From Bdellovibrionia bacterium (GTDB lineage Bacteria; Bdellovibrionota; UBA1018), in NCBI GenBank assembly GCA_045805065.1, contig JBJMMA010000077.1, forward strand, positions 1-16,241: a DNA stretch of 16,241 nucleotides, written 5' to 3'. Every line of letters starts with the position of its first letter. Position 1 is the stretch's first letter. The position numbers are program-made. Of this stretch, positions 15,001-16,241 are shown piece by piece.

Positions 15001-16241
15001 TCCGTCTTCCCAGGCCCGCTGATCTCCGTCAGCGCTCCCTTCGGAATTCCCCCCTCCAGCAAAGAAAAAGAAAGTGAGCTGCGATTCCGATAACCGGAGG
15101 TCGTTCCAATAAGCTCCCGAAGAGATGTGATCGCACTCGCCAAAGCCATAACCGTCGAGTCCTCTCATGACCATCTCCGGATCAGGCCTGCCAGAATTCC
15201 TTCAATGCGAAAGCGCCTCTCAGGATCGACATGAATTGTTGGGTACGCAGGGTTGGCTGCATGCAATTCCACTTGTCCACCCTTGCGTTGATATCTTTTG
15301 ATCGTGGCCTCGTTATCGATCAGAGCAACCACCGTCTCACCATTCTCAGCTGAATCCTGCTTGCGGATGATGACGTAATCGCCATCGAGAATTCCATCTC
15401 CAATCATGGAGTCGCCTTGAACTTTCAGAATGAAGTGCTCACCGCTTTTCTTGAGAAGCGACATCGGCACATCCAGAAACTCGGGTGATTGAACGGCCTC
15501 AATGGGGCGCCCTGCTGCAACTTTGCCCAGAAGCGGAAGGGAGCGAATGTTGGGCTCTTCAGACAAAGCAGGCGCTGGAGCCGTAGGCTTTGCATTCTCT
15601 GGAGCGACACTCAATCCGCGACGCGCGTTCCATTCCTTCTTCAAGAACCCAAGCTCTCCGAGCTGATTGAGGTAATGCTGAACCGTTCCCAGCGAGCTGA
15701 AACCAAACTTGGCTGCGATTTCTTTTTGAGAAGGCGCATAGCCCTTTTCGGCCTGATGAGCCTGGATGAACTCCAGAACCTGCTTTTGCTTGGGTGTTAG
15801 GAACTTGCTCGTCATGTTTAACTCCTCAGTTCGTATCTTCTTCGTATGTTAGTCGTAAGTTATTCGTAGGTCAATACCGAGCGACTACGAATTTTCAAAA
15901 TTTTGAAGATTTCATCAACTTGGACCGTCAAAGACAAACTAATTCACTCCGATATAGAAATAGTGAGAAATTTAGCATCTCGAACCTTCATAGCTTTGAT
16001 CCTGAGCGCGCTTGCGACTGGCCCATCGCGCGTCACCGGCATTCTCCAGTCCGCGGATGTGCATTCCACCGCAGGGGTGCTGCGCGCACTCGGCGTCGCT
16101 GTTCCGGAGCTCTCCTCCGTGTCGTAGTTGGGCCCGCAGCCACTCGGATAATCCGTGCGAGCGGTGCGCGAGTAGGTCGCCTGGGCGGGATAAACGTTGT
16201 CGACGTTCGGCGGTCCGGTCAGCGTGTAGCCGATCCGGTGA

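What a model noticed while it worked through the whole genome (the two positions that open the first line are those of the whole stretch)
15815..15880. New LexA box: the Bdellovibrio TTAC half-site rearranged as a direct repeat (TACG-N7-TACG) controlling lexA-imuAB-dnaE2 [...]
Four TACG repeats at 11-bp period overlap the promoter of the lexA-imuA-imuB-dnaE2 operon; order consensus GACTTACGCA-N2-ACTTACGCA. It is the only intergenic match to the consensus in the genome, so the SOS regulon appears to be just this cassette. A second LexA clade in the same order uses a different palindrome (CCATAC-N3-GTATGG).
Evidence so far: TACG-N7-TACG upstream of 22 of 30 lexA genes from 5 families, nearly all with recognition helix PSQ-EIA-HFGF-SLGTVQ; rows with helix PPT(Y/F)RDIA carry the palindrome; genome scan with one mismatch: intergenic only at C77; two looser sites at C72, C75.
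(Added by a program. Inside this text positions count along the whole contig: contig position 1 is position 1 of the stretch shown here. "Call 12" and the like, gene names such as g00115 and contig names such as C1 are that model's own, and its searches are not shown. The text may have been shortened before it was handed on; [...] marks where a part breaks off. The agent that wrote the report below was given it as the finding of a first reader that could run no searches.)

Follow-up and report, generated by a model that had tools for sequence, protein, structure and literature searches.

The report
Direct-repeat LexA operator in Bdellovibrionota
Four evenly spaced repeats over the promoter of an error-prone DNA repair operon are very probably where the DNA-damage repressor LexA binds; they belong to a widespread head-to-tail type of LexA site whose letters track the protein's recognition helix, and they suggest that the mirror-image site published for Bdellovibrio is only part of the story.

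Summary
Observation confirmed: four TACG at an 11-bp period (- strand 15868, 15857, 15846, 15835) over a TTGACC-17-TAACAT promoter of lexA-imuA-imuB-dnaE2; the only array of three or more in the genome. It is very probably the LexA operator: 54 of 56 order LexA with an SLGTVQ helix carry the repeat; 28 of 44 strict sites away from lexA precede SOS genes; box letters covary with helix-3 residues. So it is a variant of a known direct-repeat type (alphaproteobacterial GTTC-N7-GTTC; Balneolaeota TTAC repeat), not a rearranged palindrome. Corrections: the second clade's palindrome has N4, not N3; the cassette-only regulon holds for this genome, not for the order (recA, recN). No binding was tested. 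The scan noted a TTACA direct-repeat version before on another genome (e1-4989278).

The parts
15828..15871 (-). Operator: four 11-bp units in register, half-sites CTACGA, TTACGA, ATACGA, ATACGA (TACG cores at 15868-65, 15857-54, 15846-43, 15835-32); two direct-repeat LexA boxes in tandem
   Evidence: unique array in genome; four units also in the two nearest LexA relatives L002 and L003
15869..15874 (-). sigma70 -35 hexamer TTGACC, overlapping the first unit
   Evidence: same register in 51 of 54 relatives' boxes
15846..15851 (-). sigma70 -10 hexamer TAACAT; units 1-2 fill the 17-bp spacer, units 3-4 cover -10 and the inferred start site
   Evidence: start site inferred, not measured
15822..15827 (-). 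Shine-Dalgarno-like GAGGAG, 6 nt before the lexA ATG
   Evidence: read from the sequence
15885..15892 (+). single half-site in opposite orientation, 15 nt from unit 1; role unknown
   Evidence: inverted pair I5; no partner at 11 bp
15165..15815 (-). lexA, 216 aa; helix 3 S41-L42-G43-T44-V45-Q46-H47 (E. coli 39-45); Ala101-Gly102, Ser136, Lys173 intact; only lexA found in the assembly
14550..15149 (-). imuA, 199 aa, 15 nt after lexA
   Evidence: (below cut-off)
13064..14488 (-). imuB (longest ORF; an ATG at 14413 may be the start)
   Evidence: no family hit; finds the gene between imuA and dnaE2 in relatives
9845..13042 (-). dnaE2/imuC error-prone polymerase, 1065 aa
   Evidence: NF004225 over cut-off

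Best explanation
The array is the operator of the LexA encoded next to it. A LexA dimer binds two head-to-tail half-sites (NTACGA) one helical turn apart; units 1-2 sit between -35 and -10 and units 3-4 over -10/+1, so two dimers block sigma70 polymerase. After DNA damage RecA-ssDNA triggers Ala-Gly self-cleavage and lexA-imuA-imuB-dnaE2 is transcribed for error-prone bypass. The box is one letter-variant of an 11-bp direct-repeat LexA box, N-T-(A/T)-C-(A/G)-N, used across Bdellovibrionota, with letters set by helix-3 residues 40, 41, 44 and 45 (E. coli numbers). Shown: anatomy, conservation, gene association, covariation. Inferred: binding, repression, induction, co-transcription, dimer geometry.
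For: 54 of 56 order LexA with SLGTVQ have TACG-N7-TACG; the 2 misses are a contig end and an assembly gap. It fills the -35/-10 spacer (-35 match in 51 of 54). Reverse test: of 44 strict sites away from lexA in 116 genomes, 28 precede imuA (12), recN (5), recA (4), dnaE2 (3), imuB (2), radical SAM TIGR03916 (1) or an S24 peptidase (1); the other 16 match the 13 reversed-pattern control hits. Lag 11 in 124 of 138 phylum promoters against 3-20 at other lags; control stretches inside the gene 0 of 211. Covariation: N41 with A at base 5 in 25 of 25, other residues with G in 119 of 122; D45 with G at base 6 in 23 of 23, N/K/R45 with C in 84 of 95. D/E45-G6 on a tree without the helix columns: 7 independent pairs, on average 5.4 same way, 0 opposite, median p 0.031. 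Residues 39, 41, 42, 44, 45 are E. coli's DNA contacts (passage of PMC3091678; alignment). Catalytic and cleavage residues intact.
Against: No binding, expression or start-site data. The window's own units differ from the order consensus (A, not C, at base 6), so a matrix from 52 relatives ranks an intragenic site above it (18.7 vs 17.1) and the reversed genome gives as many hits. The H45-A6 rule that explains this is weak (6 of 9; 2 independent pairs). Residue groups were chosen after seeing the data, and five of six pair tests did not reach p 0.05. Residue 44 has 21 exceptions in 144. The lexA gene is followed by imuA/imuB in only 29 of 47 SLGTVQ loci.
Confidence: 0.9

Rival explanations
1. 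One reading: an ancestral Bdellovibrio-type palindrome TTAC-N3-GTAA was rearranged into a direct repeat in this order, a new and local invention.
For: TTAC-N3-GTAA is the published B. bacteriovorus box (passages of PMC8565304, PMC3323433) and is present in 7 of 19 lexA promoters of the N41 clade and in 4 imuA promoters of genus g124. In g124 lexA promoters the two downstream inverted halves are 12, not 11, apart (read), so the palindromic junction may matter there. An AU test did not reject grouping the N41 clade with palindrome-binding LexA (p 0.197).
Against: The same promoters hold a TTACA-N6-TTACA repeat in the -35/-10 spacer (18 of 19); dinB promoters of that family have the repeat in 20 of 27 and the exact palindrome in 0 of 27; radical SAM genes too (G245, G271). 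The junction spacing varies (N3, N4 in L218; 10 bp or more between opposed boxes in other clades). Both trees put the N41 clade with direct-repeat LexA (96/93 in the careful tree).
Confidence: 0.15
2. The repeats are the site of another regulator, or a conserved promoter-spacer feature, and LexA binds elsewhere.
For: LexA-independent damage regulators exist (established knowledge).
Against: Spacers are not normally sequence-conserved; the letters change with LexA helix-3 residues, down to single-residue contrasts (SLGTVQN/TTACGC, SLGTVQD/TTACGG, SVGTVQD/GTACGG, SVGTVQR/GTACGC); LexA of the PPTYRD clade have a palindrome instead and their promoters lack the repeat; two LexA-like proteins with very different helices have different 11-bp repeats at the same place.
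Confidence: 0.05
3. The true half-site is read on the other strand (TTCGTA, an alphaproteobacterial-like TTCG repeat), since TACGAA is self-overlapping.
For: The array also reads as (G/C/A)TTCGT-like units on the + strand; my blind box finder chose that strand for L003.
Against: In 51 relatives base 6 is C or G, which removes the reverse reading while the register to -35 stays the same; Q44 goes with TAC in 110 of 126.
Confidence: 0.07
4. Chance or assembly artefact near the contig end.
For: Beyond about 15,990 the contig holds a 46-aa aroA fragment at 67-69% G+C, a likely chimeric end.
Against: Four units in the same register in two other genomes (L002, L003); unique in the genome.
Confidence: 0.01

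Closest known systems
Alphaproteobacterial LexA box GTTC-N7-GTTC (passages of PMC8565304 and PMC3323433; Acidobacterium capsulatum box seen only as a reference title)
   Same: Direct repeat with the same 11-bp period; a clade in the window's own order carries GTTCG-N6-GTTCG (15 of 16); GTACG boxes in other families are intermediate.
   Different: Half-site TTACG/NTACGA instead of GTTC; helix SLGTVQH instead of SKSG(V/I)HR; regulon small. Grouping of the two alphaproteobacterial LexA with this clade has only moderate support (92/71).
Bdellovibrio bacteriovorus LexA box TTAC-N3-GTAA (Campoy et al. 2005; seen only as cited in PMC8565304, PMC3323433, PMC3901139; the paper is not held)
   Same: TTAC core; control of lexA and the imuA-imuB-dnaE2 cassette but not recA (no box before recA here, nor in 3 of 3 g124 genomes).
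   Different: No TTAC-N3-GTAA in any of 100 order lexA promoters. In the clade that has it, it lies at the junction of a direct repeat with an inverted half, and the repeat alone marks dinB.
Balneolaeota LexA direct repeat TTACAC...WTACAT (PMC7739468, section 12 read whole; supplement passages)
   Same: TTAC-type half-site in direct repeat, shown by EMSA to bind LexA; proof that LexA can read a TTAC direct repeat.
   Different: The listed sites have a 13-bp period (TTAC-N9-TTAC, counted), not 11; base 5 is A, not G; larger regulon with recA.
lexA-imuA-imuB-imuC mutagenesis cassette (Pseudomonas putida lexA2 type; passages of PMC3901139)
   Same: Same four-gene order under a dedicated LexA.
   Different: Here it is the only lexA found in the assembly and the box is a direct repeat.

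Membership tests
LexA SOS repressor | N-terminal LexA wHTH plus S24 peptidase, over the family cut-off | tested here: met
   PF01726, PF00717; TIGR00498 189 bits vs 111
LexA SOS repressor | Ala-Gly cleavage site and Ser/Lys dyad | tested here: met
   A101-G102, S136, K173
LexA operator (SOS box) | Conserved motif overlapping the lexA promoter | tested here: met
   54 of 56 SLGTVQ promoters, in the -35/-10 spacer
LexA operator (SOS box) | Recurs before DNA-damage genes elsewhere | tested here: met
   28 of 44 non-lexA sites in the order; none elsewhere in this genome
LexA operator (SOS box) | Bound by purified LexA; damage-inducible | not testable with these tools
   needs EMSA and reporter; RNA runs found were contigs with share 0.10 or less
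Alphaproteobacterial GTTC-N7-GTTC box | Direct repeat, 11-bp period | tested here: met
Alphaproteobacterial GTTC-N7-GTTC box | GTTC half-site | tested here: not met
   window half-sites are NTACGA
Alphaproteobacterial GTTC-N7-GTTC box | LexA of common descent with alphaproteobacterial LexA | tested here: inconclusive
   one side of the tree with them: 99 SH-like (long-branch warning), 92/71; only two alphaproteobacterial rows
Bdellovibrio TTAC-N3-GTAA box | Palindrome TTAC-N3-GTAA | tested here: not met
   0 of 100 order lexA loci
Balneolaeota TTAC direct repeat | 13-bp period, TTACA half-site | tested here: not met
   period 11, base 5 G; lag 13 in 9 of 138 promoters
imuA-imuB-imuC cassette | imuA, imuB, dnaE2 in order on one strand behind a LexA box | tested here: met
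   imuA below cut-off, imuB without family hit

The most novel reading that the evidence does not exclude
One old lineage of direct-repeat-binding LexA spans Bdellovibrionota, Acidobacteriota, Deferrisomatales and probably Alphaproteobacteria, with a readable four-residue code (residues 40, 44, 41, 45 set half-site bases 1, 3, 5, 6) that also fits the E. coli and B. subtilis half-sites. The published Bdellovibrio palindrome is then a junction between opposed direct-repeat halves, the real box is TTACA-N6-TTACA, and dinB (and in some genomes a radical SAM repair gene) are overlooked regulon members.
Probability: 0.55. Interest if true: 0.7.

Novelty: new variant of a known kind. Interest (0 to 1): 0.52.

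Why it matters
LexA boxes are the standard example of a regulator changing its site, and the literature I could read treats direct-repeat boxes as separate inventions (PMC7739468). A phylum-wide series of repeats whose letters follow single helix residues gives natural pairs for testing a recognition code, lets SOS regulons be predicted in uncultured lineages from the LexA sequence, and makes a cheap prediction in a cultured model predator: its LexA should bind the dinB promoter, which lacks the published palindrome. How a two-fold symmetric LexA dimer reads a head-to-tail repeat is, to my knowledge (recalled), not structurally solved; PDB hits were only E. coli-type, and other palindrome binders or fragments.

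Tried and rejected
Matrix scan of the own genome with 52 relatives' boxes: no other convincing site; 24 hits over 9 bits against 57 in the reversed genome. C72, C75, C7 sites rejected; C171 and C231 sites are not before repair genes. AU tests gave no verdict: N41 clade with palindrome binders p 0.197; palindrome clade with the order's SLGTVQ LexA p 0.086. The 211-row IQ-TREE search did not finish; FastTree was used and a 47-row careful tree. Linker length does not separate the two box types (direct-repeat LexA 8-78 residues, palindrome clade 10). Plasmid and phage searches gave only distant LexA, used as outgroups. Paper searches found no description of a TACG-N7-TACG or TTAC-N7-TTAC LexA box or of Bdellovibrionota SOS motifs; Campoy 2005, Erill 2006 and Erill 2016 are not held, so their figures and supplements could already hold part of this. 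No structure or complex was predicted: the tools do not model DNA.

Full report
Observation. On the - strand TACG starts at 15868, 15857, 15846 and 15835, 53 to 20 nt before the lexA ATG at 15815. The units read CTACGA, TTACGA, ATACGA, ATACGA. No other array of three or four exists in the 262 contigs, whereas the bare pair TACG-N7-TACG occurs 46 times, like other spacings (28-88). A sigma70-like pair TTGACC-17-TAACAT (15874-15846) overlaps them: units 1-2 fill the spacer, units 3-4 cover -10 and the inferred start. Downstream on the same strand lie lexA, imuA, imuB and dnaE2; imuA scores below its cut-off and imuB has no family hit. LexA keeps A101-G102, S136 and K173 and is the only LexA found in the assembly (94% complete). 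The lineage is not named by the tools; record titles of close LexA relatives (Bacteriovoracaceae, Bdellovibrio sp., Oligoflexia) make Bdellovibrionota the inference.

The order. LexA was found in 97 of 116 genomes. I fetched 100 lexA loci (30 given, 70 taken) and left out 10 places that cover only the C-terminal part. 58 of 100, from 11 of 12 families, have TACG-N7-TACG; none has TTAC-N3-GTAA. After dropping one fragment, 56 have the helix SLGTVQ and 54 of them the repeat; one miss is a contig end, the other an assembly gap in the box. In 40 of 54 an in-frame ATG follows -10 by 4-8 nt (leaderless), though not in the window. A second clade of 20 (helix PPT(Y/F/L)RD...AVGTVQD) has the palindrome CCATAC-N4-GTATGG in 18; none of 19 with enough DNA is followed by imuA/imuB.

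Reverse test and regulon. A strict pattern matched 55 of 116 genomes, with 13 reversed-pattern control hits (my sum). All 44 sites away from lexA were fetched: 28 lie before imuA (12), recN (5), recA (4), dnaE2 (3), imuB (2), a TIGR03916 radical SAM gene (1) or an S24-only gene (1); 16 do not, about the control level. The recA and recN sites each come from one genus, so they are not independent. In the window's genome there is no box before recA, dinB, two uvrA or radA, and an own-type pattern with one mismatch hits only here. So the cassette-only regulon holds for this assembly, not for the order.

The phylum. From 301 sampled genomes I took 57 lexA loci outside the order, picked among the higher-scoring listed matches to cover families; weak matches are not represented. 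53 of 57 have an 11-bp repeat of form N-T-(A/T)-C-(A/G)-N. Pooled with the order's non-palindrome genes, 124 of 138 promoters show lag 11, other lags 3-20. The same form occurs in 17 of 27 loci from the phylum of a Holophagales record (two unpublished genomes left out) and before a Deferrisomatales lexA. Control stretches inside the gene gave 0 of 211.

The published Bdellovibrio box. It is TTAC-N3-GTAA (passages; the original paper is not held). Genus g124 of family f21 has this palindrome before both lexA and imuA and no box before recA (3 of 3), so I take it as the Bdellovibrio group; this is inference, not a name from a tool. Among 19 LexA with N41, 18 have TTACA-N6-TTACA in the spacer position and 7 the exact palindrome. 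In four g124 imuA promoters and five lexA promoters of other genera the palindrome is the junction of two opposed 11-bp repeats. Against a neat picture, in g124 lexA promoters the two inverted halves are 12 apart. A repeat pattern built from lexA promoters also hit imuA, dinB (NF002677) and radical SAM genes. In a direct test, 20 of 27 dinB promoters of the family have the repeat, 0 the exact palindrome, 1 a one-mismatch palindrome, and 0 of 27 control stretches the repeat (28 best loci, one without upstream DNA). The repeat therefore predicts SOS genes better than the palindrome in that clade.

Recognition code. Query residues 41-47 equal E. coli 39-45, named as DNA contacts in PMC3091678 and PMC13416735 (passages). 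Over 147 promoters with a repeat: N41 goes with A at base 5 in 25 of 25, others with G in 119 of 122; D45 with G at base 6 in 23 of 23, N/K/R with C in 84 of 95, H mostly with A; L/F/Y/N at 40 almost never with G at base 1, K/R always, P/V mostly; Q44 with A at base 3 in 110 of 126. The window's L-G-Q-H predicts its own (C/T/A)TACGA. With the helix columns removed from the tree, D/E45-G6 gave 7 independent pairs, 5.4 same way, none opposite, median p 0.031; the other five tests had 2-6 pairs and did not reach 0.05, with no opposite trend on average. Groups were set after seeing the data. The E. coli right half (TACAG; N41, E45) and the palindrome clade's GTATGG (V40, G41, Q44, D45) fit the same code (inference from motifs).

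Phylogeny. FastTree on 211 rows splits 175 rows holding all repeat-bearing Bdellovibrionota, Acidobacteriota and two alphaproteobacterial LexA from the palindrome binders, including the order's CCATAC clade (99; long-branch warning). The careful 47-row tree keeps this split at 92/71 and joins the N41 and TACG clades at 96/93. AU tests rejected neither alternative tried (p 0.197, 0.086), so a single origin is favoured, not shown.

Mechanism. Shown: a unique, conserved, promoter-overlapping repeat that recurs before repair genes and varies with LexA's helix. Inferred from established SOS biology: two LexA dimers occupy the four units and block polymerase; RecA-driven cleavage frees lexA-imuA-imuB-dnaE2. 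All three H45 relatives have four units while 37 of 42 N45 genes have two, which may offset weaker units (speculation).

Comparison and novelty. Direct-repeat LexA boxes are known: GTTC-N7-GTTC, and the Balneolaeota TTAC repeat validated by EMSA (PMC7739468, section 12 read whole, supplement passages; its sites have a 13-bp period). Nine paper searches found no TACG or TTAC-N7-TTAC box, but three key papers are not held. The scan had already noted repeat boxes in other phyla and a TTACA version in a Bdellovibrio-like genome, after I had formed my reading. Verdict: a real operator, a new letter-variant of a known kind; the value lies in the code and in the testable re-reading of the Bdellovibrio box. 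Interest 0.52.

Noticed in passing
window 15987-16241: The contig end holds a 46-aa aroA (EPSP synthase) fragment that stops at once, at 67-69% G+C against 52% for the genome: probably a chimeric end.
   Followed up: partly
order lexA promoters, e.g. L004, L006, L007: In 40 of 54 SLGTVQ-type genes an in-frame ATG lies 4-8 nt after the -10 box, so lexA is probably leaderless.
   Followed up: partly
L145 (G090) and L151 (G023): LexA-like genes with very different helices (SRYPIQI, HLYSVQF) head imuAB-dnaE2 cassettes and have their own unrelated 11-bp repeats in the promoter spacer (9 of 9 and 7 of 9 identical). G090 also has a TACG-type lexA: two parallel circuits.
   Followed up: partly
L144-L173 (palindrome clade): The CCATAC-N4-GTATGG palindrome often contains the probable lexA start codon; the clade is never next to imuAB (0 of 19) and its regulon was not examined.
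   Followed up: no
L032, L033, L037, L331, L333, L334: Deferrisomatales-type and some Acidobacteriota LexA with SLGT(V/I)QN and TTACGC repeats nest among the order's genes: possible lateral transfer.
   Followed up: no
L044, 40 nt before lexA: A Desulfobacterales lexA promoter has a TT(T/A)CAG repeat at a 12-bp period in its spacer.
   Followed up: no
L235 (G233), L227 (G221), L232: Extra perfect TTACA repeats in the g124 genomes before genes that are not obvious repair genes (one near an HTH protein); possible further regulon members.
   Followed up: no
L284, L285 (genus g27): Perfect boxes next to small genes with a weak phage ABA-sandwich hit in two genomes.
   Followed up: no
L264:1589-2773: An ORF after a chance-level box has a TcdA/TcdB-type glycosyltransferase domain hit.
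   Followed up: no
LexA residue 140 and 63 (window numbering): Direct-repeat LexA mostly have D/E at 140 and N/H/R at wing residue 63; palindrome binders A and G. May be a clade mark or a determinant of geometry.
   Followed up: no
window 2269-8912: Ordinary neighbours: STAS-CheX protein, M3 peptidase, molybdopterin oxidoreductase with cytochrome b561, K+/H+ antiporter with TrkA-C.
   Followed up: no
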